Source: Psammoneis japonica (lineage: Eukaryota). Taken from it: 64,000 bases of DNA. The position numbers and the translations under genes were made by a program. This document shows, piece after piece, positions 5,992 through 55,900 of this stretch (position 1 is the first letter of the stretch; every line of letters starts with the position of its first letter). The notes beneath the pieces are model-generated. The model was given only the letters and a program-made list of their open reading frames with translations, did not search any database and had not been told where the DNA came from. The DNA is taken from assembly GCA_008632985.1 (NCBI GenBank), contig QPGO01000014.1, positions 572,289 to 636,288 on the forward strand, read 5' to 3'.

Positions 5992-6491
5992 GGTGGATAC
6001 TGTAGTTTTTTGCTGTGAACGATGGTTTTTTTTTTTTTTGCCGCTTTGATGATCGAGCTGTCCGCGTTCTCTCTCGAAATGGGCGCGATGCACGTAGAAT
6101 GCTGTAGACTCGGTACATTGACAGATGACCGTTAGCTTTTGAATAATTTGAACGCACCGAATTTTGTCTCGTAGATTTATGCAGGAACGTAAAGAAAACC
6201 AACGAATATTACTTAAAGTTATTTGTGAATGTAGGTTTACATTTTTTAGAAACTTATATATGAATGAAGTTTATATTCCACAGATGAATACTTCCTATTC
6301 TACAGATCGAAGATTTGAATAAAAATTTCAAAAATATTTCGAAAAACACAGCCGCCCATCTGGTACAGGACAACCGGCGAGAAACTCAGAACAGCCCGAA
6401 GCCATGGCGATGCAAGCACTAATCGACTTGTGTCATTGCATCCACCGATTGAGAGCATGAAATGCTATTGTAAACCGCTCAAGAAAGAGTC

Positions 6492-24000: not shown

Positions 24001-25614
24001 AAATCAGCTGGACCCAAGGCAACCTGCAGTCTTCATGTTCTCAATCCTGATGGAAACTTCAATGCCAAGGAGTCATCCAGAATCAAGGCTACAGTGGCAG
24101 ACATTCTTGACTTGATTCAGCTGTGCGAAAACAAGGTTGAGCTTCAGAAACTGAGCAATCCACCACCATTCAACTGGTTGCTTTGGTGCAAGCAGCATTT
24201 GAAAGTTTTGTGTGACAAAATGGGTTGTCTGCACTTTCTACATGAGGATGTTGCCATGCAGGGATTGTCATTTCTTGGGGTCAATTCTGTGATGGACACT
24301 TTGACAGAAAAAACTGCACCTGGCATCAACGCAGGAAAACAGCCGCAGGTTGTTTCTTTGACATGGATGCCTTTGGCAGCACACAGTCCTTCAATGAGAC
24401 AGTCACCAATGGCAGAAGTCCCACAGATCAACACTGCAATGACAAGCATGACATGAAGCCAATGCTGACTTGGATGCACCACAATCAAGCTCAGCTTGAC
24501 TTTGCACTTCAAGACTTGGACCTGCAAAACACAACAGTCCCTCAATCCTGACATGTTGCTGTCCACTGACACATTCAAGAATCTTCTGCTGGATGACAAC
24601 AGGCCATGGAACAATGTTGCAATGGGTGAAGGTGGCAACACGGCACTTCCCAAGGTGTGCATGGATTGGCTGAAGTTCCCGACATTCCCTGTGAGGGACT
24701 TTTGCTTGTCGGCTCCAGTCACAGTGCTCTGCCATTTCAAGAACATTGTTTGCAGATCCAGGCCAGACCCAAAACAAGTCATGAGATTGGCAATTCTTGC
24801 CAGTCATCCAACAGGATGCCACTGCTTCCACTGTGTCAGGGACAAGCATCTGCCCAGCCTGTGTTGCAAAGGCATGGACCCATTTGTGCAATTTGCCAAA
24901 TGCTTGAAGAATGAGTTTGGCATGTTGTTCGGCAACCCACATGTGGGGTGGATCAGCCTGACCAATTTGATGTGTGAGAAGTTTTCTGTGGTTTTCATTG
25001 ACAAGAGGTGCACAAGCATGGCAAATGACCCAGTTGATCTCATCGTGGACAAAATCTGTGCTGTGCTGCTTTGGATTAATGACAACATGATCACCAAAGA
25101 GTTCTGTCCCAATTTAATGGAACAATGCTGCAAGGCTGCCTGCAATGTTTGGCCACACCGGGGAGCAGATTTCAGCAAGATTCATCTCATGTTGGTGCTG
25201 CAATGTCTTGCGCTGGCCAGTGTTGTGGTGAAGGACCATCCACGTCTGAATGACATGGTGCATCCTGTCTTCAATTGTGGTGCTGCTGCACAACTGTTGC
25301 ATGTCAACCCAGAAGAATGTCTGCTCATGCACCAATGGACATCATCAGAGACTGGGACCAAAGAGCACAGTTGGAATGGAATGGAGCACAAACTGTGTGA
25401 GAATTCCAGCTGTTGCGCAGCACCTGCACATTCAATTGTGCACTCCATGGTCCCTGTTTGGGACAAGACCTGTTCATCTTCTCTCCCTCTGGTCAGCGTC
25501 TGCACAAGGCATGTGGACTGACAGAGCATCAAAAGGTGGAGTGTGTTGATGGCAACCCAAACATGTGCAAGGAATGCAACAGCCAAGATGCCACATCAGA
25601 TGTGTCTAACTTTG

Positions 25615-25830
25615 TCACAGACGGACTCATTGCTGACAATGAATCTCACTCATTGCTGGAGAAAACCCACAGCAACAATGACAGTGGCAAATTGTTGGTT
25701 CCCAATGGACTGGTTGCTGACAATGAATTAAACTCATTGTCTGCGGAATCTGCCATGAATGATGGTGGTGGCATTTCCTCTGCACATGATGGACTTGTGG
25801 CAGACAATGAACTGGGCTCATTGTCAGAGG
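25615..25830 (+). repeat. Three approximately 84-bp coding-type repeats, (D/N)GL(I/V)ADNE.SL
   Basis: TDGLIADNESHSL, PNGLVADNELNSL and HDGLVADNELGSL in ORF 25413-26024. Confidence 0.75.
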
Positions 25831-27059
25831 ACTCCAAAAGCAACAAATCAGAGCCCACATGTCACAAATTCACATCCAAGGAATCTGCCATTGACAAAGT
25901 TGTTGACGGGTTTGATGATTCAGAGCACTGCCTGCCCATTGTCACAGGTGAATCAGCAGTCATCCTGTTGCCGGAAAAAGATTTGGATGATGAGGATGTG
26001 TGCAATGATCCTGTGGACAATTGAGCCAAACCACCAGTCCTTTGAAAAGTGCAAAATTTTGATGTGGGGGGCATGCATGGATGCAACTTTTTTCAAGTCT
26101 CGGATTCGCACATCAGCTCATTCTGTGTTTTGCTTGTGTCATTCAACATGAAACACAATGCTGGAACTGTCTTGTGCAAAACTTTTGCAGCAAGTTTTTC
26201 ATCCTTACAAGCAATGACGGAGGTGCAAATGTCCCATGGCTGTGCATGACAAGGCCTGTCAACACAGGAGATCTGTCCTTGGATGAGCTCTGTTTGGACC
26301 ATGGTGTGAAGGCTGTCCAATCCACACAGCAGCAAAGAGATGAGGCTGGGTGCCAAGTTGTGAAGGAACTTTGTGCAAACGCCTCTGTTGAGGCATGCAC
26401 CATGTCTCTGCAGGATGGAAGTGCCATGCACCACTTTAATTGCAACATTTCTGCCAAGGATTCTGATGACCACATGAAGTTGTGATTTGGAAGTGAGATT
26501 GATTTTTAAGAAGAGCAGATTTGTTCAGATTTGCATGGACTGCCACTGGATGCAATGAGGGGAGTGGCAGCAAACGTCATTCAGAAAATGCTTTTTTTGC
26601 AAAAACCTCAAAGAGATGATGAAATCATTGTTGCATCTGAAGCTTGAGAGGTGCCACATCATTGTCCCATGCAACCTGTGGTCCCTTGCCCAAGTCATGC
26701 GCAACTTGGAGTGCATGGAAGAATGTGCGCTGGAGCTTGGCATGACCAACAAGATGGCATGTGGCAAAGTGATGATTTGCCAGGCATCCCATGAAATTGC
26801 AGAGCAGGACAGGGGGGGGGGGTTGGCTTGGAAAACCTTCCAACCAGGAAGCACTGCATTTGGGAGTCATGGAACAGGAAATTTGGGAAACCCTTCCAGA
26901 GACAGAAAGGGATGCAGTCCTGAAATTCATCAAGGAACTTCACAGATTTGATCCAACAAAACTGACAAAGTTCTTTTCCTTTGAGAGGAGAATGCCCTCT
27001 TGTGTGACTCTGCAATCCCAGGCAGCTCCTCACAAATCAACAACTTGTCACCAATGGCC

Positions 27060-29950
27060 TTGATTGGCACCAAGAACAGCTTGGGTGAGCACACTGCATT
27101 TTTGGAAGTGGACAGAGCTTGGTTTTTTACTTGGTCCAATTGTCAATGACTGACTGGGTTGGTGTGTTGCATGCACTCTATCATGGAATGCTTGTCTGCC
27201 TTGCACACGCATGGGTGAAAGACCGCGTGCAACTCACCATTGCTTTCCTTTTTGAAGAAACAGTGCAGCTGGGATGGGAAGAACAAATCCCCCCTCCTTG
27301 TCCCAAAGTTCACATCATTTGCCCAGTGGTGCACAGGTCCTTTGCTGTTGCAGCCAGGGTGAGCGTGGCAAGTGTCTGGCCCATTTTTGTTGTGAAACTC
27401 TGTTTTTGCAAAAAGGTTGTTGGAGAAACTCTCTCCTGCACCAACGCAATCCCACCACTTTTCCAAAAGAAATTGAGCAGGACTGGGTGGAGCTGACATT
27501 GTTTTTGCTTTCTGTGCCAGAGGAAGCTGACTGCCTTGTTTGTCACACTGCAGTGGATGGAAAATGTGCTCCCCCCAGTTTGTGTTCTTCCAACTCACGT
27601 GCCATGTTGTTTCTTTCCACCTTTGATGAAATCCATGGGTTTGCCAACAAGGCTTGGTGTGCCGTCATTTGGTCTTGCATGCGTGGCGCCACCTGACCAA
27701 GGAATGCATCAAAGCTGCATTGTTGTGCTGTCACCAAGGGCAATTTGAAAAAGTCTTTTAACAAGATTCCCCGAGACCCACATCAAAGTTCATGGCACAA
27801 CAGAAATGACACAGAAAGATTGGCAGGTGGAGCAGCTTGTGCAACTTTTGCAGCTTCCACCCAGCTCCTTCATGTCTGGTGAGAAATGGACAACGCAAGA
27901 CACCAGCAACCAAGTTTTCTTTGAGATTTTGTTCAGATTGGTTCTGTCATTTGGTTGGTTCCCAATTAGATGCCAAGCATGGAAGGTGAGCAAGTCTTCC
28001 AACAACTGGATGCACTGTCTGACACTGCATCTAAGGGGCTGTCTCTCATTTTTGCTTTTCTGTCAGTTGCATGTGTGGCAAGTTCCTTCATCTTCAGATT
28101 CATCCTGGTTGTGTCATGCAGAATTGTCTGAGTCCATCTTGCATGGAGCATTGGTTTCATCCTCACTGCATTCTTCCCCAACCACTGCATGGTTGTTGTT
28201 GGGATCACACTCTTCTGGGCTTTGGAAACAATTAATTTGGAACATGGGAATGCCACAACCCACTGGCAATGGAGAATCGTCTTCATCCTCTGCTCAGAAA
28301 CAAGAATTGTGTGCCTCTTGCCCTTCCTTTGTCAGAAGCAAGGGTGAAAAACAAAGGCCAGGCCTGCCCAGTGGTGAGAGTTTGGGGAGGCAAGTGAGGC
28401 AGCACCGCCTTTCCAAATTGGTTTGCAAGAAAGAGTTGCAAGTTGATCTGTGTTTCCCAAACATTTTTTCAACCAGTCTGTCAACCTTGCTTCTCACAGA
28501 GTTGGTCATGCTGTCAACTAACACACCGATCTCCCTTTTTAAAGTTCCATTTTCAAACAGTTGCATCATGTCACTGGCCGTTGAAAAGGCAACCCCAAAC
28601 AGCTGCTCACCAAAATCTGCCTTCAGCAAGCAGTTGGTGGGGACATTGTGTTGCTTCATGCAGTGCAGCTGTTGCTGCCAGTGATTCTTCTCTTTTTTGT
28701 CAAGACTTGGATCATTTACCTTGTGTTAAATGAGCAACAGATTGCTTGCATGCATGAGCTTGCAATCCTTCCAGGGGTCATCAAGTTCATTGTGTCCCAT
28801 TGTGAAAAACCTGGAACACTGTTGGCGACAATTTTTTGCACCGCACCAGCCCACAAGACAATCGCCACTCTTTGTGTCACCGTCAATTGGGGTTGTGGTT
28901 GGAATGACATGTAGGTGGCAGATCCAGTCACCGCATTGCACACAACAGCTGAAGCCACCTTGTTCCACAATGTCAAGAAGTGGCCAGAGCATTGTGGCCA
29001 GAGCATTGTGGCCAATGCCTTGTCACAATCATGGAGGCTTTGCCTCTTCTCCAAGTTGCGTGCATCAGACTGTTGTTTGGCTGTGGAGGAGGACATCTTC
29101 TCCAAGTCAGGAATGCAACCAAGGACTTGCCACTTTGCCCTGTCATGCCATTGGTTGCAGGCAACATGAGCCAAGGCAACTGTGACAGGCTCTCCACAAA
29201 AGGATCCCACAGAGGCTGTTTTTCCCATCTTGTCCATGCAAAATGTCAAACAATCAAGGAGCTCTTTAAGAGGATCCAAGACTCTGGCTGTGCATGTCCT
29301 TCTGTGCCACTTGCTGGCCAAAACACACTTGTCATTGTTGCCCTTGGCAACACACATTCCAAATGGATTGTTTGGGTCCACAAGATTGCTTTTGGTTGCC
29401 CATGTGCAAGTGTCCAGCATGAACGATTCCCAGGCATCTTTGAAATTCCATCGCGGAACTCAGGCAGTTGTCTCACCACGTTCCCTGGTTGCACTTTCCA
29501 GGTTGACTAGAATCATCTCGCATTTGGGACCAGGAAATGATTTGTGGAGGCTCTCCATTGGTTTGCTCCATTGTGGCATTTGCATGTCAACCTGGAATGT
29601 GCTCCCACAGTGTTGTTCAATGAATTCAGCAATCTTGTCATGCAGGTGCAGTGGTGCTCAGCAGTCATCTGCCAGCTTGCAAAGCTCTGCGCAAGCACCG
29701 TTGAGGTTGCTCAGAGAAGGCAAGCTGGCAAATGCATCTTTGGCTGGTTTTTTGCAGACCTTTCTCAATCTGCTGTCATTGCTGAGTGATTCCTTGTCAG
29801 CGTCTGATGATGTTGAATCATCATCATGTGGGGCTTTGGAAGCACACATGGTGACATCAGGCAATGTGTCAAAACAGTTAACTTCTGACTTGCTCTCATC
29901 CAACAACATCTCCAACGACATGCAGTGGCTCTCCTCAGGATTGCACTGCA
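27060..29950 (-). pseudogene. Decayed Plavaka-type (CMC-related) DNA transposase
   Basis: Motifs are recognisable once C/H are read back as Y: SKW[Y]RRT[Y], LTF[Y]MDK.G, EPVT, W.VLG[Y]IPDLE, DGDTKSGD.LVG, TASDMM.LFENG, LEDLLTFHAW, [YR]AHPG[Y]NSKGP..WA. Multiple frameshifts, including a 14-bp duplication at about 28980-29013. Confidence 0.7.
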
Positions 29951-32235
29951 ACCCAAGAGGGGAAACATCATCATCAAAAGATGCTGACTGTGGTGCATTG
30001 GTTGGTTGTGTTTGACAGCAGTTGGCCCAAGCCAGACATTTGCAGCAGATGCCCTCCGTTGTGACCGCCTCAGCCTGGGCAGTGACGAGTTGTCTGATGA
30101 TGAAGAAAGGTCCAGTTCCTCTGACTGCCTTCCATGTGCAATGTTGTTCCTCCCAGGGGAAGTGCAACCCACAACGCTGATGGACACCTCCAGCAATGGG
30201 TGTGGGGCAACAGGCTCTCAATGTGACAAGTTGGCCTTCTCTTGAACAAACAAGAAACATTGCAGGTTGTGATGGAAATGGGTGAGCATGCACGTGAATG
30301 ATTGTTTGCAACACGGACATGCCATTGCCCCATCCTCACCCTGCCAAACACCGTTGTCATCCATTTGGAAAATGGCAATGATTTGTGAATTGCACAACTG
30401 TGTTTGTGGAGCAATGGCCTCACTTGGTTAGATCATGGAAAGTGAGATGATTGTGCAGGGAAGCAAGAGAAACATGACACAAAATGGTGCAAAAATGCCA
30501 GTGCATTACATTCTTCCCATCAATGAAAACATTTGTGGGTGCAGATGAATTGCACATGTTGGGATCATTGTCTGCAGAAAGGAGAAAGTAAGTTGTGATG
30601 TGTTGGTTGCAATCATTCTGGATGCACCTCACTGTGATTTGCAATTGAGTGTAAAAGCAGGGGTGCACCCATGCCCACAGCAGGAGACAACACTTTGCCA
30701 TCAACCATGAATCTGGTTGCACAAAATGACAGATTAATGACCCCTTGGCCAAACAACTGCTGGCAAAAATCAAGGCAATGACAAACATGATGGATGAAAC
30801 AAGAGAGCAAATTACAGAAGCAGAGCATGATGCAGCTTTTGATGAAGTGGAGCACTTGATGCAATCAACAGACTCTGGGAGGATGGAACACACTGATGGC
30901 AATGGGGGGTGGTGGTTTGAGGAGGGGAGGAGGGAACATGCGGATGACCCGCACCTCTGCCATGACTGCATGGACATGTTTAGCATGTTGGACAGTTTAC
31001 AATGGCGTTGGGATGATGAGGAACACCAGTTGGTGTGGGAGGAACAATGGAAAAATGCATGCAACTTGATGGTTGTGGTGTGCCACCACATAAAAAAAAT
31101 GGAGTGACAAAGCAGTTGAGTGCATGCATGCTGGCACACGCATGTTCTCCATGTGTGATGACATCAACTGGGTGAACAACATCATCAATCATGGGGGAAG
31201 CGCTCACAAGTGCAAGGAATGTTGGGACTGCATTGCGATGCACCAAGACAGGCAAGGAAAGAGGCACTGTGTCTGCAGTCATTGCAACAACAATGGAGAG
31301 AGTGAAATGAGGGATGAACTTGCAGCAGGATCCATGGTGGGCAAAACGAAACTAGCCAAAGACAGGATGGACATTTGTGCTTTGAAGGAGATGTCCAGCA
31401 TTGGCTTGCCGACTTGTGGAATGGATGACAAAGGAACGTGCAGACCACTCAGAGAAAGGTCAAGGTGGGGAGGCACTTGCAGACCAGTGATGGACAAGGA
31501 TGGGATTGCCTTTGATGCCATGAAACAGGCAAAGTGGCTCCAGTGTGAAATGCTGCAGGACAAGCATGAAAAACTTTGATTTTGTGATGGAATGGAGTTC
31601 TTTTGTTTGTCACCCAGGACAGTCAATCATTGGACAATGGATTTTGTCAAGAAGTAGATTCAAGGTGAAATTTGTGAGCAGCAACATCAAAATGAGAGTG
31701 AGAGATGCTGTCTGGCAGAGAAACTCCGGGCACAATCACGTGGACCATTTTGTGAATTGTGTCAGACTAGAGACATTGGCTTTCAATTGCATGACTGATT
31801 GTTCTGACATCAGTCGGTGCAGCATGTTTAAAGTTGCAAGTTTGGAGGGAGACAAGGAATTGGACCAGACAACAATGTGGCACCAAAATGCCAGTGATGC
31901 CACAGCACCATTGTGGCACCGGGATGGTGGGAACAGGTGTCATTTGTTCATTGCACTCAAAATCACTTTTGCAGGTGAAATGGTTTCCAAATGCCTTTGC
32001 AGGTTGGACAAATGCGTGTGTCCTCAAATGAGTTGGAAATGAATTTAGAAATCACAGTCATGCAGAAGGTTTGAACTGGATTGTGGGTTGACATTTTTTT
32101 TTAAACACAATGAAGAGTGGCAAAACCAACAAAAAGATTGTGTGTTCACAGTTGTGGTTGTTTGCAAATTGTGTTGCAGTTAAAGGAGCGGAGTCATTGG
32201 TGAGAGCATCAGGTGTTTAGTGTTGAAAGAGAGGT

Positions 32236-33506
32236 TTGAAGATTTTGCAATGGCGACCATCGTCAAGGGAACAGAGGCATGCAGCTGCCCCACAATTCAC
32301 AACAGCCACAGAGGCAATGGCAAGGAAGAAGGAAAAACAGTGTGAGGAGGTGGCTAGAGATCAACCAACCAGCCCGAGGCTGGCCACAGCATTGATGAGG
32401 GCAGGAGCCAGTGGAGATTGCCAGTCCACAAAGAGAGAGGAAGAAGAGGTGGCACAGAGAGAGCCATTCCCAAGGGCGGAGTTCCTTGCAAAGGTGGACA
32501 TGGCTGGCAGTGGCAAAGTGCTGCAGCTCATTTGGAAAAAGACAGCAAGTGGCAATTTCAGCAAGCAAGACTGGGCAGGATTGTGGAAAGACTGGGCAAA
32601 GAAGTGCATCATGAATGCAACCAATGCAAAAAGGAACACCATCACCCAGACAATGCAGAAGAATGCAATGACTGGCAAGTGTTTTGTGATGCATGGCATG
32701 TTGAGTGTGGTTGTGCTTAACACCACCCTTCTTTGGTGAAGATGTGATGACAGAGCAGCAAGCCGAGGAATTGCATGGTCAGAAGAAACCTGCCATCAAA
32801 AACAAATGAGGGAACAAAAGGAAGAAGAAGGATCAAGCGGCGGATGAAGAACCATTCTTGGAAACTTGGGAGGAGCAGACAGCAAACACAATTGTGAAGG
32901 AGAAGCACAGCAACAAGGAAGCATGTGCATGGTTCTATGACAATGTCCTAAAATTCACAAAGCACACTGCAGTGTGGAGAAAAAAGGTGGAGTCAGGCAG
33001 GTGAGACCAAGGCTCCAGATCTAACTGCGGCAAGTGACAAGGCTCTGGGGCTGTTGACATTGGAAAACCACTGGAAGAATTGGGAGCACAAGGCCCTCAA
33101 TGAGAAGACTGTTGGAGGGGGGAAGACTCAGGGGACAAGGAGGAGGAGGAGGAGTCAAACTGGCACCCAAGTGCACATGCCCAACACCACAGTGCAACTC
33201 ATGGAATGAGAAAGGAAAATTGCAATTCAACGCCCTGCTTGTGCAAGTGAAGGAACAACATGGTGCAGTGGCAGCAAGAAAAGGGAGAGCAATCAAAAGG
33301 ACAAGGGAGCAAAAAGGAAGAAAATGCTGGTGGAGAAGGAGGCAAGAAAACAGGCAATGACAGAGCTTTTCAGTGACAACAAGGAGGACAAGGAAGAGGT
33401 GACAGACAGGAATGGGGGCAACAAGGATGGTGAAGATGAGGAAGAAGGAAGTGAAGATGGAAGCAACAATGAAGAAGAGGCAGAAATTGAGCAAACTTTG
33501 GTGTGA
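32236..33506 (+). pseudogene. Decayed accessory ORF of the type found with Plavaka-like elements
   Basis: Fragments AWFYDNVL, (SD.A)LGLLTLENHWKNWE, PK[Y]T...WNEKGKL.FNALL.QVKE and an acidic tail. Assignment is from recalled motif similarity only. Confidence 0.45.
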
Positions 33507-34379
33507 AGAGGGAGTGGAGCCTTTTGTCAATGCAAGAATGGAGCATGGCAAAGCAATGCATCGGTGTTCATTGAAAACAATCACAAACTGGGAATGCAGC
33601 AATTTAGTGTTCATTGAGAGATGTTTCATCCTTTTGATTGACAAACAGTTTGTGACACAGATTTTACAAACCCCATGAAACATGTTTGTTGGCATTGATT
33701 TGTTTTTTTGAAAGGCTTTTCAATGTCACAGTGAAAAGGTGAGAAAGGCATGTACTCTGAAGGGGGAACAGGTTGCATTTTCACAGTCAAAGGTTGCATC
33801 TCATGGGAGATGGTGGGCCCCCATGGCAACAATTTTTTTGTCTGTCATGTTCAACAAATTGTCACCACGTGCACAACTGTCAAGGTTTGAAACAACGGAA
33901 TTTCATGCCACAACAGACTGAAAGGTTTTCCATGAGAAAGGTGGTCTGGATCACTGTGATGTGTGCTCTGATGTCTGTTTCAAACAGGGTTGCCATTCAT
34001 TGATTTCCTTGAGAGACATCTCCAGTCTGTTGACATCAATGCTGCACGCAGCTGAGCCTTCCTCCTTCATTGACAGGCTCGCGTGCATTTTCCTGCCACC
34101 AGAGCTGATGCATGGACCCAGAACCACCATTGTTGTTAGTCATCATTTTTAACCGTTGCAACGTCAAACCCAGACTGAGTTGTTTGGAACTCTCTGTCTC
34201 TGCAAAGTCAAGACTGGCCCCTCAAGACATCCTTCAATGCTGCCAATCATTGCTGTTTCATTTTTGAGTTTCTGAGGCAGTCTCCGAACAATCCAACATC
34301 TCAAGAGCTTCCATTTGATGTTTTGTTTTGAGTTCTGCACACATTTTGTACCAGATCCTGTGCTTGAAGCCGTGTCTTT

Positions 34380-36100
34380 GATGTGCATCAGCCATGACAT
34401 CCAATTCACCAAGATCTACACCACTCCTGGCTTCACCAGGATGGACCACTGCAACTGCCAATGCCAACCCTTCATCAACTGTGCCTGTGCCTCTCAGGTG
34501 TGGCAGGATTCATTCTGAGCATGGGTGCTTCATGGGTGGATCACCATTGGACAACAACTGCAAGCCCAAGCTCTCTTGGTCCTGCTGTTCTGCCAACCAG
34601 TCTCACAAAAAGAAGATTCTGCCACACATTGAGTGCACTCTTTGTGAAGCAAGGAATGGAACGGATGTTGTCAAGTTTGACAGAAGTGCTGAACTCACCA
34701 AGGACGGTCACAACAAACTTGATGAAGCTCATTTCATTCAAGCTCTTTGCACCCCAGTCAAAGAACATGGGCCAGAGAACTTCTTTGCTGTGAAGCTTGA
34801 TGGCAAGGTCATGCCTCCATTTGAACATCTCCACTGATGAACACACGGAACGAGCCAAAAAAGCTTTGGATTTCTCCACCGGCAGCAAATGTGAGCACAA
34901 TGACATCTTTCTTTCAAGGTTGGTTGTCAAGTCTTGCACCTCCCATCAATTTTGAGGGAAGATCAAGGTCCAGCACGGTCATGAGAACCTGTTCAAGTGC
35001 TGTCCAGGCCAAGTCCACCTCTCATGATGGCCTTGGATGCTTGCAGTGCATCTGCCATCCATGATGTTGAACAAGCTGCCAAGGATCTCAATGCTCCATT
35101 GCTCTCGTCCTTTCCTTGCAAGGACATTTCTGAGTTTGCCACTGAAGCACTCCATCTCACCAAGCTTCTCCAAGCTGGCTGTGTGTCATTGATTGATCTT
35201 GGCTTGGATGTCCTGAAGAAATGTCTCAAGACATCATGCAAGGCTTTCAATTGTAAAATCCATGCCATGTTGGACAAGGTGTCACTCAAGAAACACAAGT
35301 GTCATCTCAGTGATCCCAAGGCACTTGCCAAGGACTCTGACTGTGACACTCTTGGGCCTGTGGTGTGCATTGCGCATCTCCAACAGCAGCATTGCTTCCA
35401 TGTTGCTGACAAGGATTGGCCCAGGCTCTCTACAAAGCTTCCCCAGAGCAACAACACTTCCAAGACCACTGGCAGGTGTGCCTGCAATGCCTGTGGAGCC
35501 AAGGACCACTGGGACAACAATCCCAAGTGTCCCAAGCATGCGGAATGTCAGAAGTGCTAGAAAGAAAAACGTCAGCAGTGATGACAGAACAGAAAGGATG
35601 ACTCAATGGCAGCTCCTGCCAACACATCGCCTCTTGCATCCTCTGTCACTGTTGACACTGTCCCTGCTGAGAAACAACCCAAACTCAAGGAATCGCTTGC
35701 CAAAAAGCCCCATTGTTGCACCCGCCTGGCAGATCTGTCAAGCCCATCATAAACAAGTGCGGTTTGACCACCAATTTTTGTGGAAAGTGCATGTGCAACC
35801 ACACCGGCATTGGAGGGATGCACACAAATCACAAGGAGTCAGACCATGTTTGCAAGCCACCCAAACAAGAGCAGCCTGCAGGAAATTTTGCCTCTGTTGA
35901 CAATCTAGATTCGGGCGTCCCATCTGTGCCACCCACCCAGACTGCTCCAGATCCAACCAATGTGCCCAAGGACATTTCTGTCAATGGGGACGAGCTGGTT
36001 TGGACCAGGTTTCATTGCTGCAAGGTTGAGGACCCGTCTCCCCTCCTGCCATGCCTGTCATCAACATCTCCTGCAGGTGGCTGCAAGCCTGCTCCTGCAT
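34380..36100 (+). pseudogene. Decayed Ty1/Copia (CoDi-like) gag
   Basis: Helical gag-like region (DISEFATEAL.L.KLLQAG...DTLGPV), zinc knuckle CNACGAKDHWDNNPKC and a second FCGKC.C..TG..G.H..H...H motif. A weak PBS-like tttgtaccagatc lies at about 34345. Confidence 0.6.
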
Positions 36101-37089
36101 CTCAGAGGGAGCAACCAATGATTGCAGTTGAGACCGTTGAACCTGAAGATGAGCTGATGATTTCAGCAATTGCTTCAACAGCTACAACAACCTTTCTTGG
36201 GATGATTCAATTGTCATGTTTCTGACCCAGCCCACCCCACCATCCATTGTTCCTGCCTTGGATTCTCCAGCTCCTCCTGCTGAGTGCTTCTTTGATGCCA
36301 TGTCCAAGCCCAAACCAACGCTGGACCCACTGGTTCCCCAAGCTCACCATCTGTGGCTGTGACATCTCCTCAAGCTTCTGCTCTTCTGGATCTCTGCCAT
36401 GCTTTGGCCTGTGGCTTGTTTGCTCTTGTGATGATCCTCCTTCTCCTCTTCACCGTGTCCGCACACTCAAGCACTGGCCTGCAGTGTGTTGCCATCCCTG
36501 CCGTTGGGGCGTGATTGCATGCGCGATTGCTCTTTGGCATTTTGTCTGCAGCGGCACTGCTCCTCCCCACCCCTTTCAGTCTTTTGACTGCCTCTCCTCC
36601 TCTCAAACATTCAAAGTTGTCTCTGCTCTGATCTGTTGCCCCTGGCACATTTGTCCAGTGCCACACTGTCAAGGCCAGATGTCAAGGCCAGACAGTTTGA
36701 ATGTGAGTTGGTGTGTTCAGAGGGAGTCAAGTCAAAAACACATCCACTCTGCCTTTCAAACTTGCCAAGTTGATTGATGCAAGTGATGCCAATGATTTCT
36801 TTGATGCACACACAGAGCTGCGGCTGCTCATTTGCCAGGAGTGCTTCTTTCATGCTGAGACCTTCCGTCAATCCGCCAGCCCGGATGTCTTTGGCATTGC
36901 TGACTTGTGTCATGCCCGACATTTGATTGATTGCACTCACACTCCAGCAATTGCTCCGGAGGACCTGTCTGCCTCTCATGTCCATCCATTCTCTGCTGTG
37001 ATCCTTCCAGGACAGAAAGCTTTGCTGAAGGAAGTAAAAGGGTGGGCTGCATGCTCAACAAAGGAGGCATGCCCAAAGCTTCAGTAGAA

Positions 37090-37800
37090 GGAGGCAAAGA
37101 GACCGCAAACAGTCTCAGTGACCTCTTGCTGAGCATTTGCGATGGCCATGGCATGCTTGGGATTTGGAGTGGAAGCAGGGGCCTGTGTGGGTGCTGGAGG
37201 AGGAGCAGTGGTGCAGCTGGAGATGCAGTGGCTGCTCCAGCAACTTTGGCCACAGGACAGCAGCGCTTGGTCTTGTGACAACAACAATGATCTTTGCCAT
37301 CAATGTTGCGGTGACTTTGGTGATGAGAATCATTGAATGTTCCATGCAAAGGTCATGAGTCTTGAAGGTGGCAGTGTCAATGACTTGAAAAATGTCATCC
37401 ATGTTGCACTTGACATGATTCAACTGCACAGTTTCAGTGGACATGGCCAGGTCACAAGTGTCTTCAGGCTTGTCAGGATTGTTGGTGTTGAGGATGAGCA
37501 GGTCAAAGCAGGTCTGCTGCTTGGCAGTTGCCTTTTGGAACAAGTCATTGAGTTTGTCTGGGTCCAAAGAGTCCCTCTGAGACTTGGCACGTGACGCCTT
37601 CAGAGTTTCAGTGGATGTCTTTGGCGCAGTGCAGACTTTTGCCTTTCATCCATTTGTCTCCACTGCAGACATGCTGGCTGGAGATGGAGTGTGCAAAGGC
37701 GGCAGAGGTGTGCTTGCTGCAGACATGCAGGCTGCACAAGAAAGCACAGGTTCTTTGGGTGACGGTCAGTTGCACTCCTGTTGTCTGTCCAAATGTGGTT
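37090..37800 (-). pseudogene. Second decayed LTR-retrotransposon gag-like fragment
   Basis: LDPDKLNDLFQKATAKQQT.FDLL...KPEDT.DLAMS.ETV.LNHVK.NMDDIFQVID resembles the N-terminus of diatom Copia gag. Confidence 0.4.
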
Positions 37801-40800
37801 CAGCAATGCAAGCAACAGTGTTGGCCTGATGGTCCAGGATGTTGACTGTCCAACAGAAGTTGCAAATTTTGTTTGCAAGCACAATGCCATTGCCAAGGCG
37901 GAAGTCCGCAATGGTCAGTTCTCTGTTGATGGATGTGTGAGCCTTTCCAGCTCACGTGTTGATTTGTTGTTTGCGTTCTTCAGCAATGCAATGAACAAGG
38001 TCTCAGCTTTTTGCAGTTGAAGCCTCTGCAGTTGTTCAATGAGGTTGTCAAGTGTTTCAGATCTTTGACTGGACATGCGCAAGAAGTTCAAGTTCTGCAT
38101 GCAGAATTGCACACAGAAACACACGGAGCTCAATTCTTGGTCGGAGAGAAAGAGATGAGTGCAGGAGTCATCAAGTGTGATGCTTGGGCTCCTGACCTGT
38201 GATGACTCTCAATTGAAAGCAGAATTGGAGATAACTGTTGGTTGAATTGGGTGGCACATTGCCAACAGCAGGGCTGGCAATGCACAAGAAGTGGATCAAG
38301 CTGCTGGAGTGTCATCACACTGGATGTGCAGGAATTGTGACAAGTCTGGAGACAAGCAAGGTGACAAACCACATGTGCAAGTGCAAAAGCATGCAAATTG
38401 CACATGAGTTTGCACTGTGCTGACATGTGGTGCAGGTCTAAAAAAAAAGTGACAACACATGGCATCTGCTCATTTTTGACAACATCACTCCAACATGAGC
38501 AACCAAGGTGCAGCTGGAGTCACACGTGCTTTCATTTGTTTGACTGTGACTTTTCCTCAGCTGGGCCCCAAGTGACTTCATTGTGGGGAGCATTTTGTGA
38601 GTGTTTGCAAACACACATCATGGCTTTGCCACACTCAAATTCATGTCACCCTCATGAATTATTGAAAAAAACAGGGCTGCTTTTTTTGTGGCAGCTGCCC
38701 CAAGATGTCTGTGGCCCTGTGGCAGATGTGCTGAGAATGACAATCTTGTTGACCTTGGCATTGATGTGGGCAGCATTGGTGCATGCAAAAAACATCTTGT
38801 GCCAAATTGACAACTGTGTCAATGCAAGATGCCACTCCAGAACCCTGCAGAGGCCATTGCTGAGGAGCTCAAAACGCAAGTTGTGATGCGGCCATTGATT
38901 GGATCAAGACATTTTTCACATCATGAGGCCAAACAAACCATCAGACAGCATGTCTCAAACCACACTGAAAGTGGATGCACTGCCCAAAGAAGAGCTTCTG
39001 GAATGAAATGTCAACACAGGTTTCATGCCTTGCATGTGCCGCAAAATGTGCCGGGATCACACACAGTGCTGCCACTCATGCGCCACACCAGCAGCAAAGC
39101 ACCAAGGAACCATGTTGAGTTTTCCTTCAATGCCAAACACAAAGCACACTTCCAAGCATTGGGCCAGTTGTCCCAAGGCTGCAAGGTGTGGGGAAGCCCT
39201 GATGTTTGACTCAACAAGCCCGAATGATTGATTTGTGATTCAAGCCTGAATGATTGATTTGTTGTTCAAGAGCAAAATTGAGTGTAAACCAACTGGTGCT
39301 GGTCATTGTGTTGCATTGTGTTGCACTGTGTGTCATGCTGCATTGAATTGTGCTTCACCACATTGACATGTGTTTCAACTCCACGGTCATTTTGCTCTGC
39401 CTGTCACACCCTGAGCACACCAATTCCCATGACATTGACAAACAACATCTTTTGCAGACTTCTTGATGCTCTGAAAGATGAGTTGGTGGTGGTGGTGGTG
39501 GGGGTTCTTATCTTCATTGGACGCAACACTGCACGCAACAATGTGGCTCTCTTGATTCAAACTGACAACATTGACTGGCATTAAACCAGCGTTTCTTGAG
39601 CACAAGGCAGGTGCCATTTGTGTTGACAGTTAAAAAGAAATCCTGCCCCCAACACAAGTTGACAACATCCACTCAGCAGCAGATTCTCTGCCAAAAAATC
39701 ATGGCAAAATTGTTCTGTGTTTGCTGTTGCAAAAATGTGCTCCTCACCACAAAGGTGAGTTGTGTGCTCATCAAATGTGTCAAAATTCATTGAGTCATGC
39801 TTGCATCCCACAAGGGTGTCCACAATGCCTTCCCAGCCCTCTTCCTTTCCTCCATTGGCACAGTGCAATGTCACCACCACTTGCTTTGTTTTGAAAGCAT
39901 CCTCTTGGCTTTCCTCTGTGTGCCCCAGTTGTGATTCAAATTCTTTTCAAGGCCCTTTTGAAGCAACTAACTTGGGCACGACTCAGCATGAAATGGTGAG
40001 CCAAAGATTTGCAAGGCTTGTTTTGCCAGTTGGCTCTCATGGAAAGACATGTTGTGGTGGTCAGCATGATGCATTGCTCTTTTAAAATTTGGCTGTTGTT
40101 TGGAGGCTTTTGAACAATCTCTGCATGGCACTTGCACTTGCTCTGATGACAATGAAGTGTGCACATCACCACTCATTGTTTCCCACCCTTCATTGTCATC
40201 AGTGAAAACACTGATTCCCACATTGTGGTTGATCCAATGATCAAGCTCAAAGGTGTTTTAGTTTCTCTTGGCACTCAAACACTGGAACAGGAACCTTGTT
40301 GCCACTCATGTTTGTTGCAGTCAATGGCAAAGCAAAAACCACAACACAGCAAATGAATGGGGAGCAGGAGAGATGGCACAAGAGCATTGGTGCAGTGTGC
40401 TGCAGTTGAAGCAAACCTTTGGATTTTTTGCACAATGCCAGACACAACAAGAACAGCTGATAATTGGCCACTCTGCAGTTTCTGGCCTGACTGCTGGGGG
40501 GAGGATTCAAGGAGTCCCACAAATGAGAAGGAGCCCATGCTGAATCTTTGGCTCTGGACAAAGTCAATCTGCCAGGGGCGGTTTTCCCAAATGAGTGTTG
40601 CACATGCTGACACATCAATGTGTGGGGTCACATGCACATGAGTTTGCCAATCACACTGAGTGGCAAGCACATCTGTCACCAACAGCTGGGCAAACTTGCC
40701 ATTTGCACTGCAAAGCCTGTCGATTGCTGAGTCGCAAGAATCGTCACTCTCTTTGTCCATTTTTCAGCTGCCCCAGTTGCACTTGCTCACTTTTTCAGAG

Positions 40801-41375
40801 ATGCCATGCACAACCAACTTGCTTGGAAGCCTGGAGCAGCCATCCCATTTCTTGCAGATTGACTGACTTTTGTTGTGTCAAATGACAAGCAGCACGCTGC
40901 TTTTTGATGACACAGTTGTCAAAAAATGACAACTTGTGGAACAACGTTCTTGCTGGCAGTGTTTGTCAGCTGCAACACATGTGAGCATCTGTTTGCATCA
41001 ACAGCTACTAGAACAATGTCATTCATTGACAGTTGTCAGGTGCAACAGCATGATGTCACTTAAACCCAGTGCACACGCCAAGCAAAAGTGCAAAAATGAA
41101 CTGTGTGACATCATTTGCACATTGCTCACAGCAGAGATGACGGACAGACAAGTGCGCACCGGCAGGGCGCGGGACGGATGATGTCGGATGGCTGGAGCGG
41201 CACGCACTGCCTGCACGAGTACCATACAGTACGGCATGTACTGTAGGGCCCTACTGATCGTAGTACGACGCGAAACACACATGCTGTACCGTAAAATTGA
41301 GCAGCAGAGCATCACACATCATACACCAGCAGTGAACGAGAGGTCCTTCCTGCTTCTGCTCTTGTCTCAACCGCC

Positions 41376-43899
41376 ATGTCTAGCAAAGATGATGATTCGA
41401 AACAAATCGGAGAGGAGAGTCAGGTGTGTAATGAAGAGAGACAAGAAGCAATTCAGTGCTTTGAATGGTTGGTTTGCCATTGCGCGACCCCCGAATTCCG
41501 CCCTCGGGAGATCTCTCGTAGGGCATCGTACGTTTGCTACGGGAGGTTGAAGGTTTCGCGCGTTTTTCCACTCTTTTTTTTTGTCGACTTACCCGATTTT
41601 TTGTTGTTGCTTTTCTCTTTCTAGATTTCTCGACAAGACGTGGGCGAAAGCCTTGCCGATGAGGAGGAGGAGGACGCCAAACCACCCGCCGAGGCTATAT
41701 CTTCATTTTACTCCAATGAAAATATGTTGAAGGCATTGGTGAGGGTGTTTGCTGTGTTGTTTGCCTCCTGTCATTGTATGATTCTCATCTTGATGTCGAT
41801 TTGTGACGCGACTAGAAACATTTAAGTGGTGCGCTGGAACCAACCCCGGAGAACGAAACAGGAGCATGGAAAGATGTGGAAGTAAAAGGCTTTTCTTTTG
41901 TTGATAATGCTGCCATTGCAGGCATCATCAACGGCGTTGATTCGACGCAAGAGAGCTCCTTGGAGGAAATGCTGTTGATTGCGTCGTGTTTACGTCAATG
42001 TTGTGCCAAGGGAAATAACAATAAGATCGTCAAGAAAATCTTTATCAGCAAGGATAAAGATAAGCCCATTCCTGCCAAGGTCATGGGTGACGAGTGGCGC
42101 AAATTTGCTCTCCGACGCATTGAGGAGCGAAGCATGTCAAACCAAGGGCGAGACTACGGGGCAACAGACCATCTGTTGGTGAACAACCTTATTCTTTTTA
42201 TACAAGAGTGTAATATGATCAACACTTCGAAACAACTTGTGGTGTTGAAAGACAAACGTGGCTTGGACTGGAAAGAAATCGTGGATGATGTAAGTTGGAA
42301 GTAATTCTCTGCATTGTTTCTTGTGTCGTTTGCTGCCTGTTTCGCCTGTCGTTCGCTCTGACGCTTGCGCTTTCCGAATTCCATTCCTCTGCACCCAAGA
42401 CCATGAAAAGAGCTCGAGCCCTTAAGAACAATCAGATGATTGTATCGTGTACAAAGGCGCAAAACCGTCTTAGACAGATCATGTCGCCCTCAGACACGGA
42501 CAAAACAACTTCTGAGAAAGACAAAGTCGCGTCGAGTGCAACCAAGACGGCGCCTACAAAGGCTTTGGGTTCCGAATCATCTGGGGAAGCCCCCAGCGAG
42601 AAAGGCAACAAGGAGAAACAAAAAAAGAATCAGTCGAAGAAGCGCCGCGAAGGAATGCTAGCCCAGATGATGAAAAAAGCTCTCCCTGCGGCATCTGCTG
42701 CAAAGAAAGGGACGAAATCCGCCGCCGGCACACCGAACGCCGCATCCTCACATCCTGCTACAAACCAACAATTGCAAGATGGCACTTCTGGTAACGGTTG
42801 GTGCGGTTTATTTCCTCCACCTAAACCAGAAATAAGAGGTTGGTCACAAACACCGGGTGTGGCAACAGGGTCGGGGTGGGATCGCAAGAAGTTGGCAATG
42901 CAAAAAGTTGCCGATGTGACGAATGGTGTCGTCGGGAGAGACACGAGTGCCGAGGGAGCTGCTGCTTCCATTGCTCAGTCTCTACGCGACAACCAATCGA
43001 ATCTCGGTGGACAACCAAATGGATCTTACCCATCCGACAAATGGAACGCGGACCCACTGCCAACGTCGTCCGTTGACGAAGCACCGGCTGGTCGTACTGT
43101 ATTGCCACCTGCCACAGACGAAAACATCTTTTTTTATAACAGGGCGCATTCAGAACCGTCTCATGGCGCCCCATCTGACAGAGGTGATCCCAGAGACAGG
43201 CGCGGAAATCAAGAAAGGGACAGACACCCGCGTAGTTCCAGATCAGGTCGCGAGGAACCTCCCAGCAAAAGAGCTCGCCACGAATTTGACAGACGTGACT
43301 CTGGATCGCTTCGTCAAGAGAATTACAGCAGTGCTGCGTCTGGGAATCCGCCTTCTGGAGCGGCACATTGCAGCGGAGCTGCGCCCCATGAACAAGGCCG
43401 CGGGCGGAGGAGTCCGGCCATGAATGATCCAACATCCTTCACAGTTGGTCAGCCGTCCCCTGGCACCAACAACTGGAACCAAGGACAAAGCAAACAGCAA
43501 TGGAATGATCCACCGCCCAGCAGTCACGCTCCACCAGCAGTCATCCCACATGCAAATGCAAGTGGTGCTGGTCTAGGAAGGGGACGCGGCAGAAATCTCC
43601 CAGCTTGGATGACTCAAGGTGCTGCACAACAGCATGGCAGCTTGGGAAGTGCACCGGTGGACAATAGAACCGATTCCACCTGTGCTCCCACCACCGGTCT
43701 GCCAGCCCCAGCGCCTGCCGCCAACAACAACTGGAACCAAGGATCGAACCAGCAACAACAGGACTACCCTCGGTCTAGGAGTCAAGCACCATGGGGAGGC
43801 GTTCCCAGCAGCGGCAGTGCTGGTCGAGGAAGAGGTCGTGGCAGAGGTGTTAATCTCCCAGCTTGGATGACTCAAGGTGACAATCCTGCACCGTCGTAG
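41376..43899 (+). CDS. Uncharacterised protein, copy B. Lacks about 345 codons of exon 2; has an RGG-type C-terminal tail
   Basis: Exons 41376-41423, 41625-41738, 41816-42289 and 42400-43899 join in frame. High identity to copy A. GRGRGR(GV)NLPAWMTQG occurs twice. Confidence 0.75.
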
Positions 43900-54500: not shown

Positions 54501-55900
54501 CAGGACTGCCAGGAGATTGATGTGCTCCCAGCAATGGAGCCAGAGTCATTGCAGGCAACTGGGTCCTGTGAGCTGGCAGCCAGTGCCAACATGAGGTGCT
54601 GCTGCATGGCTGGGCTGGGGGTGCACCCAACCCAGCTTGGCTTTGCACATGATGAACTCACAAGAACAATGCTGCTGGCATGCCACAGCGTGGGGGTGGT
54701 GTGTGCCCAATGGAGTCACCCATGAGACATGCCCACACTGGTGAGCAATCTTTACTTGCCAGGTGGAGAGCTGGGTGGCAGCAGATGCCGGGTGTGTCAG
54801 CCACTTTTTCATCCTGTGGTTTCAACTGTCAAAAATCTGTGCCTTCCTTGTGATTCGCAGATGCTTTTTGAGAACGATCAACTGGGTGCAAAAAAGCATT
54901 GTCCAGAGTGAAAGATTTTTTTTCCATCTTTTTTCTGTCAAGCATTGCAAGTCATCATGTTGCCGATTTAACTTCTGCTGTCTTTAAGCCATCACTTGAA
55001 GTGCCTTCTTCTTTCCTTCTGTTTTGTTTTCACACACTGGAAAAACTTTTTTCACCAACTGTCTTGCTTCAATCATCACCAATTGAAGTCACTGCTGCCC
55101 CAATGCTGTCACTTGAAGTGCTTTTTTCCTTTCCTTCTTTGGCATCCTTGCACATGCAGCACACACACACTGAGGGGAAAAAGCTCATCTCAGGACATTG
55201 CAACAATCGACATGAAGACTTCTGCTGCTCTGCCAGACAGCCAATGCTGCTGCCAGTGTCGAGCAAAAAAGAACTGAGCACACATGCCAGCAGTGCGTTG
55301 GCATTGTCATCACAGGTGTGCCCACCTCAAACATGCAAAACAATCTCATTTTGTCTGCAGAAACAGAGTCAATCTCAGTCCCTTGTGGGGCACCACCAGC
55401 ACCAGGCCCAACAATGCCCTGCACACAAAAGAAGACTGAGGCAGCGCTGCTTGCCTTCCACGGCACTGTCCAGCAAAAAAAAACATGCACACACGCCAGC
55501 AGTGCACCGGCCCCAAAGGTTCCCACTTTGCTGTGCCAACCCCAACCCAATTCCTTGACCAACCTCTGCGGCTCCATTCCATCGCACCCAGATCTGCGAG
55601 ATTGAGTCGGCACGGTCTATTTGCGCTTTTTCTTCGTCTTTGGACTGCAGTGGCTCAGCCTCTCTGTCTCAGCCGGACTCTCCATTTCCTCGGAATCTCC
55701 ATTTCCGCCGGGCTCTTCCTCTCCGCTGGATTGGTCCACTGCTTCGTTGGGTTGCAAAGCGGTGCGATGAAGGAAAAAGGAATTACGACTGCAGGTCACC
55801 ACCTGCTTGTCCTGGTGGTTGACAGACTCTGGTGCGAAAGCTGCGTTCATGTCATTCCTACGGCATGTCGGATCATGGAAATTGGCACATTATTTTTGAA
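51520..55900. other. Second TpA/CpG-depleted block, probably a decayed transposon, family not recognised
   Basis: Same dinucleotide signature and Tyr-free ORFs as the 14.6-41.2 kb island. Poly-G at 52921 and a 19-bp doublet at about 52862-52900. Confidence 0.7.

What the first reader, a model, noticed from the sequence alone, without database searches (positions are those of the whole stretch)
41376..42620. The duplicated host gene shows the same TA->CA/TG bias
Seen by manual comparison with copy A (12000-14300): about 12 sites have TA in A and CA/TG in B. They are donors GTATGT->GTGTGT and GTAAGA->GTGAGG; GAGTATG->GAGCATG; GCTATT->GCCATT; GATATC->GGCATC; GGTTATG->GGTCATG; CCTATT->CCTGTT; CTACC->GCACC; AATAAT->AACAAT; ATTATG->ATCATG; CCTAGC->CCCAGC; and AATAAG->AACAAG. 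Only about 3 sites go the other way, and there are several CG->TG/CA changes in both copies. Many coding changes are synonymous and the frame is intact. Inference: the process leaks into a duplicated or island-adjacent gene, either by spreading or by RIP-like duplication sensing, and is filtered by selection.
Basis: partly seen in the sequence, partly recalled or inferred. Interest (0 to 1): 0.75.

Follow-up and report, generated by a model that had tools for sequence, protein, structure and literature searches.

The report
Light TA loss in live paralogue
One working copy of a triplicated diatom gene has lost about a fifth of its TA letter pairs to CA or TG, probably a light brush with the mutation process that erases TA in this genome's transposon blocks, while its sister copy beside the same block was spared.

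Summary
All 12 listed TA(A)->CA/TG(B) sites and 3 reverse sites are real; I add a 13th. A third, dead, heavily mutated copy C (sister of B) polarises them: at 7 of 13 sites C carries the opposite product, so the ancestor had TA and B lost it itself (control 2 of 146). B lost 7 to about 10 of 46 TA where 1.5-3 are expected (P 0.001-0.03); A shows no firm TA loss. B is open-framed and spliced. The leak is probably real but small. RIP-like pairing is contradicted: identical LTR pairs are hit on one side only, and a 97% duplicate pair is untouched. Distance-dependent spreading is not seen: TA content is flat around 43 islands. Filtering by selection is only partly supported, and B does not show the mutator's TAY preference. 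Best reading: B intermittently fell into the silenced state that licenses TpA A-to-G mutation, as in Bigelowiella natans (2026 preprint). This scan has already reported the island process many times on other DNA of this genome; a lightly hit live gene is the addition. The gene encodes an RFTS-fold protein; B lacks that domain and A lacks the tail.

The parts
41376..43899 (+). Copy B: predicted exons 41376-41423, 41625-41738, 41816-42289, 42400-43899; 711 codons, no internal stop; lacks the RFTS-fold part of exon 2
   Evidence: spliced contigs with B's letters in run X2
12000..14615 (+). Copy A: predicted exons 12000-12047, 12272-13417, 13503-13976, 14082-14615; 733 codons; keeps the RFTS-fold exon, lacks the low-complexity tail; no firm TA loss, 4 firm CG losses
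   Evidence: spliced 1995-nt contig with A's letters in run X2
12272..13417 (+). Exon 2 of A: domain with the fold of the DNMT1 RFTS domain; single copy in the genome; only its two ends survive in B and C
15094..41139 (.). TA- and CG-depleted island between A and B (TA o/e about 0.05, CG about 0.2); ends about 240 bp before B's ATG and begins about 480 bp after A's stop
41740..41741 (+). Firm B-specific TA->TG in the intron 2 donor (A TA, B TG, C CA); donor still used
41775..41776 (+). Firm B-specific TA->TG in intron 2 (13th site, beside an indel; C CA)
42082..42083 (+). Firm B-specific TA->CA, synonymous (C TG)
42338..42339 (+). Firm B-specific TA->TG, intron 3 (C CA)
42392..42393 (+). Firm B-specific TA->CA, intron 3 (C TG)
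42480..42481 (+). Firm B-specific TA->CA, synonymous (C TG)
42609..42610 (+). Firm B-specific TA->CA, synonymous (C TG)
41425..42595 (+). Six further TA(A) versus CA/TG(B) sites where C equals B (41425, 41865, 41914, 41923, 42429, 42594): not polarised one by one; the mixture estimate puts about half of them on B's branch
41696..41884 (+). Three reverse sites (41696, 41723, 41883): TA in B only, C equals A; most simply ordinary TA gains in B
42400..43899 (+). Exon 4 of B: low-complexity tail with repeated GRGRG...LPAWMT motifs as in full-length homologues; 11 more B/C opposite-product sites beyond 42690 show that losses continue along the gene

Best explanation
This genome has a domain-restricted mutator that turns TpA into TpG or CpA (A-to-G on either strand) inside silenced DNA. 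It acts fast, ahead of and apart from methyl-CpG decay. SHOWN: the direction, the strict TpA specificity, the lead of TA loss over CG loss, patch-wise action within single elements, and that B lost at least 7 (estimate about 10) of 46 TA after it split from C while A lost none that can be shown. INFERRED: B, a redundant, domain-deleted paralogue whose start lies about 240 bp from an island, was now and then taken as a whole into the silenced chromatin state. It received a few independent hits each time and escaped. Hits that changed the protein were mostly lost, so intronic and third-position changes remain. C, its sister, never escaped and went to near-saturation. The target is set by the chromatin state of the individual copy, not by pairing of duplicates or by distance. 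An adjacent island may help but is not enough. The chemistry is most likely deamination of adenine in DNA by a TadA/ADAT-type enzyme (proposed for B. natans; not shown there or here).
For: Polarisation: 7/13 opposite versus 2/146, P=1.3e-7; mixture estimate 9.75 (4.9-13) B-branch losses; null 1.5-3; P(>=7) = 0.001, 0.007, 0.034 for a null of 1.5, 2.2, 3. Four of the 7 firm sites are intronic, so codon choice cannot explain them. Firm losses: A 0 TA and 4 CG; B 7 TA and 1 CG; P=0.01. B's TA-without-CG profile matches the earliest stage in young LTR elements: 8/32, 19/31, 15/32 and 0/33 TA lost in the pol-side LTR, none in the other, with 0-2 CG changes. Copy C relative to B: TA kept 8/57, CG kept 30/141. 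Private changes in 5 young copies: T>C 89/1975 at TA against 8/4430 at TT, 10/4980 at TC and 11/4440 at TG, with no strand runs. Two other gene copies abutting islands are partly hit: a frameshifted copy at C13:374.7-375.8k (TA-only 18:2) and the 3' end of a copy at C13:498.2-499.5k (13:3). B is spliced in X2 contigs at both mutated donors, and these joints are absent from run X1. In B. natans the process is TpA-only, acts on a single-copy region and is active in only some lines (bioRxiv 10.64898/2026.01.13.699255).
Against: Small numbers, and the window was picked by eye from many. The mutator prefers TAY (188/570 versus TAR 74/540 in young elements; island survivors RTAY 3 versus YTAR 78), but B shows 7/45 versus 5/39. 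That is no support, though not a rejection (P about 0.25). The two other partly hit gene copies also lack the preference (11/31 versus 9/27; 8/39 versus 5/35). All host ORFs avoid synonymous TA (odds ratio 0.25-0.36) without the TAY signature, so another TA-removing force exists in live genes. Another live pair (C13:495k/511k) has firm TA losses in both copies (4 and 4), so B is not unique and the baseline may be higher than assumed. B's exon 4 synonymous TA ratio of 0.31 is low but shared by 16 of 134 ORFs. Non-TA changes show little purifying selection. No chromatin or methylation data.
Confidence: 0.55

Rival explanations
1. Ordinary TA turnover plus chance: live genes of this genome already avoid TA at synonymous sites about threefold, and B's excess is a fluctuation of that force, unrelated to the island mutator.
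For: Genome-wide synonymous TA odds ratio of 0.25-0.36 with no TAY preference, and none in B. Raw asymmetry only P=0.02-0.035. The live pair at C13:495k/511k has 22/113 and 16/108 TA-only sites in both directions.
Against: Under stationarity losses should match gains (3 seen, 1.5-2.2 expected), yet 7 firm and about 10 estimated losses occurred. A, with at least as long a path, has 0 firm losses. Live pairs away from island edges are symmetric (3:2, 5:8, 11:7, 7:4, 3:5). Four firm sites are intronic.
Confidence: 0.22
2. Distance-dependent spreading: the mutator overruns the island edge by about 1-2 kb into whatever lies next to it, like RIP leakage in fungi.
For: All three partly hit gene copies found (B, C13:375k, C13:499k) lie within about 250 bp of an island. 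The 375k copy falls from 6/7 and 7/9 TA lost near the edge to 5/13 and 6/11 further in. Leakage is proposed for Leptosphaeria effectors (PMC3105345, passage seen).
Against: TA o/e outside 43 islands is 0.47, 0.51, 0.50, 0.51, 0.49, 0.48, 0.50 from 0-100 bp to >4 kb. Synonymous TA use in 158 ORFs does not vary with distance (chi2 P=0.57; 0.51 for the 134 left after dropping ORFs with ratio <=0.2); in 89 ORFs rho=0.007. A and the copy at C13:515k border islands unharmed. B's losses are even over 2.5 kb. LTR elements are hit on the pol side even with host-like flanks (C120), or only internally (C59).
Confidence: 0.12
3. Gene conversion: B received CA/TG letters in tracts from an already mutated copy that is lost or unassembled.
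For: B has a dense B-specific patch at about 42620-42683 where A equals C, which shows that exchange or complex events happen in this family.
Against: C cannot be the donor (opposite product at 7 sites). Only three copies are found. A dead donor would bring linked non-synonymous TA changes and CG losses, yet B has 1 and about 1.
Confidence: 0.07
4. RIP-like duplication sensing: paired homologous copies are recognised and both mutated.
For: B and C are both duplicates and both hit. Two older LTR elements (C525, C282) are hit in both LTRs. Diatoms carry DNMT4, a relative of RID (PMC9998398, passages seen).
Against: A is as duplicated as B and has no firm TA loss. In 3 of 4 cleanly comparable young elements only one of two initially identical LTRs 6 kb apart is hit (42 versus 0). 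A 2-kb HSP70-like pair 96.9% identical shows TA 3/51 and 2/50. The hypermutated B. natans region is single-copy. The polarity is the reverse of RIP.
Confidence: 0.04

Closest known systems
TpA-specific hypermutation of integrated NCLDV and virophage DNA in Bigelowiella natans (Mettrop et al., bioRxiv 10.64898/2026.01.13.699255; parts 1-3 of 5 of the text read, plus two term look-ups)
   Same: TpA->TpG/CpA on both strands; locally confined; not dependent on a second copy; TA changes arise without CG changes at first; intermittent.
   Different: Here a diatom-like stramenopile, with targets that are transposon islands and gene copies. Later CG decay is added. A 3' preference (TAY) is measurable. 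A live, spliced host paralogue is lightly hit. The words diatom, paralog, host gene and CpG occur 0 times in that text; its supplements could not be seen.
RIP leakage into single-copy genes beside repeats (Leptosphaeria maculans effectors; PMC3105345, one discussion passage seen)
   Same: A genome-defence mutator reaching a functional gene near repeats, with selection proposed to limit the damage.
   Different: RIP is C-to-T and homology-triggered (the CpA->TpA preference and the sexual-stage timing are recalled, not from a call). Here the change is A-to-G at TpA, one-sided in repeat pairs, and shows no distance gradient.
Methyl-CpG decay in DNMT5-methylated diatom transposon islands (PMC9998398, passages seen)
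   Same: Sharp transposon islands with CG loss, as in copy C and the window's islands.
   Different: Does not remove TA. In young LTR pairs TA loss (42) runs far ahead of CG loss (3), and B lost TA with little CG loss.
Polymerase eta A-to-G mutagenesis at WA motifs (recalled)
   Same: A-to-G with TA as the top hotspot.
   Different: It would also raise AA/TT changes and give strand-coordinated tracts. Neither is seen (TT 8/4430, like TC and TG; run tests P 0.06-0.82).
RFTS (DNMT1-RFD, PF12047) domain of DNMT1, MET1 and DIM-2
   Same: The model of A's exon 2 (pLDDT 86.7) matches DNMT1 RFTS structures best (6pzv, E 1.2e-4); weak PF12047 hits in 5 of 26 homologues.
   Different: Stand-alone, with no methyltransferase domain found in the 26 homologues scanned; 12-14% identity, TM-score 0.3 by query and 0.5 by target; binding untested.

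Membership tests
B. natans-type TpA hypermutation | Changes are A>G/T>C confined to TpA | tested here: met
   T>C 89/1975 at TA versus 8-11 per 4400-5000 at TT, TC, TG in five young element copies; B 11/55 versus 11/222 at synonymous and non-coding sites
B. natans-type TpA hypermutation | Locally confined domains, host genes largely spared | tested here: met
   Sharp islands, flat TA content outside; B is a partial exception
B. natans-type TpA hypermutation | Does not need a second copy or pairing | tested here: met
   One-sided LTR hits; unharmed duplicates
B. natans-type TpA hypermutation | Measured rate about 1000-fold above background, active in a subset of lines | not testable with these tools
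   Needs mutation-accumulation lines
B. natans-type TpA hypermutation | B's changes carry the same fine signature (TAY preference) as this genome's mutator | tested here: inconclusive
   7/45 versus 5/39; P about 0.25 under the mutator's ratio
B. natans-type TpA hypermutation | Shared enzyme (ADAT2/TadA-like, proposed only) | tested here: inconclusive
   9 PF00383 matches in the genome, some with TadA/ADAT2-like motifs by my recall; such genes are near-universal (12 of 14 control genomes), so presence says nothing
Repeat-induced point mutation (RIP) | C:G to T:A transitions that create TpA | tested here: not met
   TA is destroyed, not created
Repeat-induced point mutation (RIP) | Both members of a linked duplication are mutated | tested here: not met
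   42 versus 0 in three young LTR pairs, a fourth unhit; two older pairs hit on both sides; A unhit
Repeat-induced point mutation (RIP) | Premeiotic timing and RID dependence | not testable with these tools
   No genetic data
RIP-like leakage (edge spreading) | Mutation load decays with distance from the repeat block | tested here: not met
   Flat metaprofile and synonymous TA use; no gradient in B; one frameshifted copy shows a weak gradient
RFTS-domain proteins | RFTS fold | tested here: met
   All 7 Foldseek matches at E<=0.001 are DNMT1 RFTS structures; applies to A only
RFTS-domain proteins | Binds ubiquitylated or K9-methylated H3 | not tested
   No binding test run

The most novel reading that the evidence does not exclude
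A TAY-preferring DNA adenine deaminase, licensed by transient silencing, repeatedly visits working paralogues in this diatom and is a routine source of synonymous, splice-donor and occasional amino-acid change in young gene copies. The gene hit here encodes a stand-alone RFTS-fold chromatin reader that may itself help to mark the target domains, with the domain-less copy B acting as a modulator.
Probability: 0.12. Interest if true: 0.8.

Novelty: new variant of a known kind. Interest (0 to 1): 0.48.

Why it matters
If true, the TpA mutator is not confined to dead or foreign DNA: it can brush a spliced host gene that survives. That would make it a source of paralogue divergence, comparable to RIP leakage in fungi but with opposite chemistry. 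It would also locate targeting in the chromatin state of single copies rather than in homology or distance. The three-copy family (unhit, lightly hit, saturated) and the one-sided LTR pairs give ready test loci. The claim for this one gene rests on 7-13 sites, and the island process itself is already in a preprint and in many earlier notes of this scan, which caps the interest.

Tried and rejected
(1) My first reading of the LTR pair at C13:779754-786369 as spreading from the neighbouring island was rejected by the other copies: the pol-side LTR is hit whatever the flank. In that call the C295 LTR comparison was mis-cut and dropped, and C171 had only one LTR in the stretch fetched. (2) First splice coordinates were off by one and were corrected. 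(3) A strand argument for selection (B exons T>C 8/31, A>G 0/31) was weakened because a frameshifted copy shows the same skew (14 CA to 6 TG). (4) Polymerase eta and processive tracts were rejected. (5) No nucleotide-level orthologue could be had: homologues are 31-45% identical at protein level and the genome has no relatives in the tool. (6) The ESM Atlas gave only hits under 0.9, which I ignored. Pfam found nothing in A or B themselves or in 13 island ORFs of the window, so the island's element types were not identified. (7) No RNA holder was listed. I treat X2 as RNA-like only because its contigs skip GT..AG introns that X1 does not. Contig depth was not used to rank A and B. (8) A source for TadA's 3' preference was sought and not found; that likeness is recalled only. 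(9) Literature searches for a diatom TpA process or a host-gene leak returned nothing on it; one search returned only the B. natans preprint. Most subscription papers are not in the library. (10) A words look-up of earlier findings for a leak into a live gene found none.

Full report
Setting. The window alternates between ordinary DNA (TA o/e about 0.5, CG about 1) and sharp islands where TA falls to about 0.05 and CG to about 0.2. A two-state model puts the island between the two gene copies at 15094-41139. The window lies on a contig of a 91-Mb genome. One named homologue of the gene is from the diatom Grammatophora oceanica; 'diatom' for this genome is my inference from that and agrees with earlier notes.

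Observation. All 12 listed sites and the 3 reverse sites are in the sequence. A 13th lies beside an indel in intron 2. On its own 12:3 is weak (P=0.035).

The gene. Both copies have four predicted exons with GT..AG introns and no internal stop. Contigs of run X2 skip these introns, while run X1 shows none of these joints. One X2 contig with B's letters uses both mutated donors and another matches B's tail exactly. X2 is not on record as RNA, so 'spliced' is inferred from the joints. Full-length homologues such as P0006 carry A's exon-2 domain, the exon-3 domain and B's GRGRG...LPAWMT tail. So A has lost the tail and B has lost 344 codons of exon 2 in frame. The lost domain has 103 homologues among 50%-identity representatives, weak PF12047 hits in 5 of 26 scanned, and a confident model whose 7 best structural matches are all DNMT1 RFTS. 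It is a host gene, and probably a chromatin reader (inference).

Polarisation. A genome search found a third copy C at C13:738041-734959, colinear with B, sharing its deletion and lying in a depleted zone. C is dead and heavily hit: of B's dinucleotides it keeps 8 of 57 TA and 30 of 141 CG. Because TA can go to CA or TG, a site where B and C carry opposite products must have been TA in their ancestor, given TA in A. That is so at 7 of 13 sites, against 2 of 146 CA/TG sites shared by A and B (P=1.3e-7). A mixture model gives 9.75 (4.9-13) losses on B's branch. B-only background transitions are 10 of 950 sites. If losses balanced gains, 1.5-3 would be expected, giving P(>=7) of 0.001-0.034. At the three reverse sites C equals A, so A has no firm TA loss. 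It has 4 firm CG losses, against 7 TA and 1 CG in B (P=0.01).

Selection. TA changes hit 7 of 27 synonymous, 4 of 28 non-coding and 1 of 35 non-synonymous opportunities; the synonymous background is 1 of 80. Against a simple filter: B's other changes are 8 non-synonymous to 3 synonymous on 687:181 sites, T>C alone is 7/21 versus 1/10, and a frameshifted copy elsewhere shows the same sense-strand skew. If the filter is real, the hits came as separate small events, since one burst could not be sorted by selection (inference).

What the mutator looks like. I compared copies of a young Ty3-type LTR element (RT-RNaseH-integrase order; copies). Of seven copies with two LTRs, four compare cleanly and are young: 8/32, 19/31, 15/32 and 0/33 TA are lost in the pol-side LTR, none in the promoter-side LTR, with 3 CG changes in all. 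One comparison was mis-cut, and two older copies are hit on both sides. Hits form patches of a few kb that differ between copies and do not depend on the flank. Private changes are confined to TA, with no AA/TT excess and no strand runs, which argues against polymerase eta (recalled signature). The process prefers TAY 2.4-fold; C and the island survivors confirm this. B's TA-without-CG profile matches this early stage, but B does not show the TAY preference (7/45 versus 5/39), nor do two other partly hit gene copies, nor does the general TA avoidance of host ORFs. This is the main result against my reading.

Targeting. Pairing is contradicted by the one-sided LTRs, by A, and by a 96.9% identical 2-kb pair with TA-only counts of 3/51 and 2/50. 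Distance spreading is not seen: in 600 kb of the contig, TA o/e outside 43 islands is flat from the first 100 bp onward and synonymous TA use in 158 ORFs does not vary with distance. Among the 29 duplicate alignments of at least 250 bp and 80% identity, those between gene-like copies are symmetric except A/B, a frameshifted copy at C13:375k (18:2) and a 3' end at C13:499k (13:3). All three hit copies touch an island, but so do unhit ones (A, C13:515k). Adjacency may help and is not sufficient. A second triplicated family shows 4 firm TA losses in each of its two gene-like copies along with CG losses, so light loss in live paralogues may be commoner than B alone suggests.

Model. Shown: direction, TpA specificity, lead over CG decay, patchiness, B-specific excess. 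Inferred: intermittent silencing of the whole B copy, sorting by selection, adenine deamination. The genome has 9 PF00383 matches, an ordinary repertoire. The 3' pyrimidine preference recalls TadA (from memory; not confirmed). Confidence 0.55; ordinary TA turnover plus chance 0.22; edge spreading 0.12; conversion 0.07; RIP-like pairing 0.04.

Known systems. It works like the TpA hypermutation of B. natans (bioRxiv 10.64898/2026.01.13.699255; abstract, introduction, results, discussion and conclusion read; supplements not seen, and they may hold flanking-base data that bear on the TAY claim). I reached that paper through earlier notes of this scan. It is not RIP. The gene-level effect parallels RIP leakage (PMC3105345, passage). 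Diatom CG-methylated islands and DNMT4 are described in PMC9998398 (passages). Searches found no paper on a diatom TpA process or on hits in live genes. Earlier notes on this genome report the island process, dead gene copies and asymmetric LTRs many times, mostly with genes 'untouched'.

Verdict. Observation confirmed; interpretation partly supported; new variant of a known kind; interest 0.48.

Noticed in passing
window 12272-13417: Stand-alone RFTS-fold domain in a family of 103 clusters (one named member is a diatom), although DNMT1 is reported as apparently lacking in most microeukaryote datasets; one homologue (P0027) also has a methyl-CpG-binding domain hit. A candidate heterochromatin reader.
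   Followed up: partly
G000:C13:738041-734959 (L004): Dead third copy C with an insert of about 500 bp, frameshifts and near-saturated TA and CG loss: direct proof that host-derived DNA is hit once silenced.
   Followed up: yes
G000:C13:779754-786369 and copies on C59, C71, C120, C295: Young Ty3-type elements lose TA in the pol half and pol-side LTR while the promoter-side LTR and the neighbouring 2 kb are mostly spared; patches differ per copy.
   Followed up: yes
window islands 15100-41100, 52000-55500: Surviving TA steps are mostly YTAR (78) and almost never RTAY (3), against 185 and 288 in host DNA: the mutator prefers T-A-pyrimidine.
   Followed up: yes
window 42620-42683: Dense patch of B-specific, mostly non-synonymous changes where A equals C.
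   Followed up: no
window 14156-14599: 216-bp tandem duplication at A's truncated 3' end; its two units differ at 8 positions, including one TA->TG and one CA->TA.
   Followed up: partly
window 15165-16066: The first kilobase of the island next to A is a mutated copy (TA 35 of 45 lost) of unhit sequence at C13:405989-406902; identity unknown.
   Followed up: partly
G000:C13:374700-375800: Frameshifted gene copy abutting an island with most TA lost (24 of 40) and CG mostly kept (7 of 45 lost).
   Followed up: partly
G000:C13:495092-499524, 511326-515827, 520450-527452: A second family with two gene-like copies and one saturated dead copy; a further copy lies at 296455-297786.
   Followed up: partly
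G000:C13:689911, 749800, 812740, 817607: 455-bp repeat family: 11-14 of 22 TA lost against 4-5 of 34 CG; the least mutated copy sits inside an island.
   Followed up: partly
G000:C13:654000-667300, 506375-509485, 718909-724564: Long open frames with synonymous TA almost gone (ratios mostly under 0.2) but CG largely kept; probably young mobile elements, not annotated here.
   Followed up: no
window 60110-61040: Tandem repeat array that is TA-rich (o/e 0.8), i.e. repeated yet not erased.
   Followed up: no
window 655-1644 and 1903-6270 (-): Knl1 RWD domain hit (E 8.5e-8) next to a 1455-codon ORF without Pfam hit; possibly one kinetochore gene.
   Followed up: no
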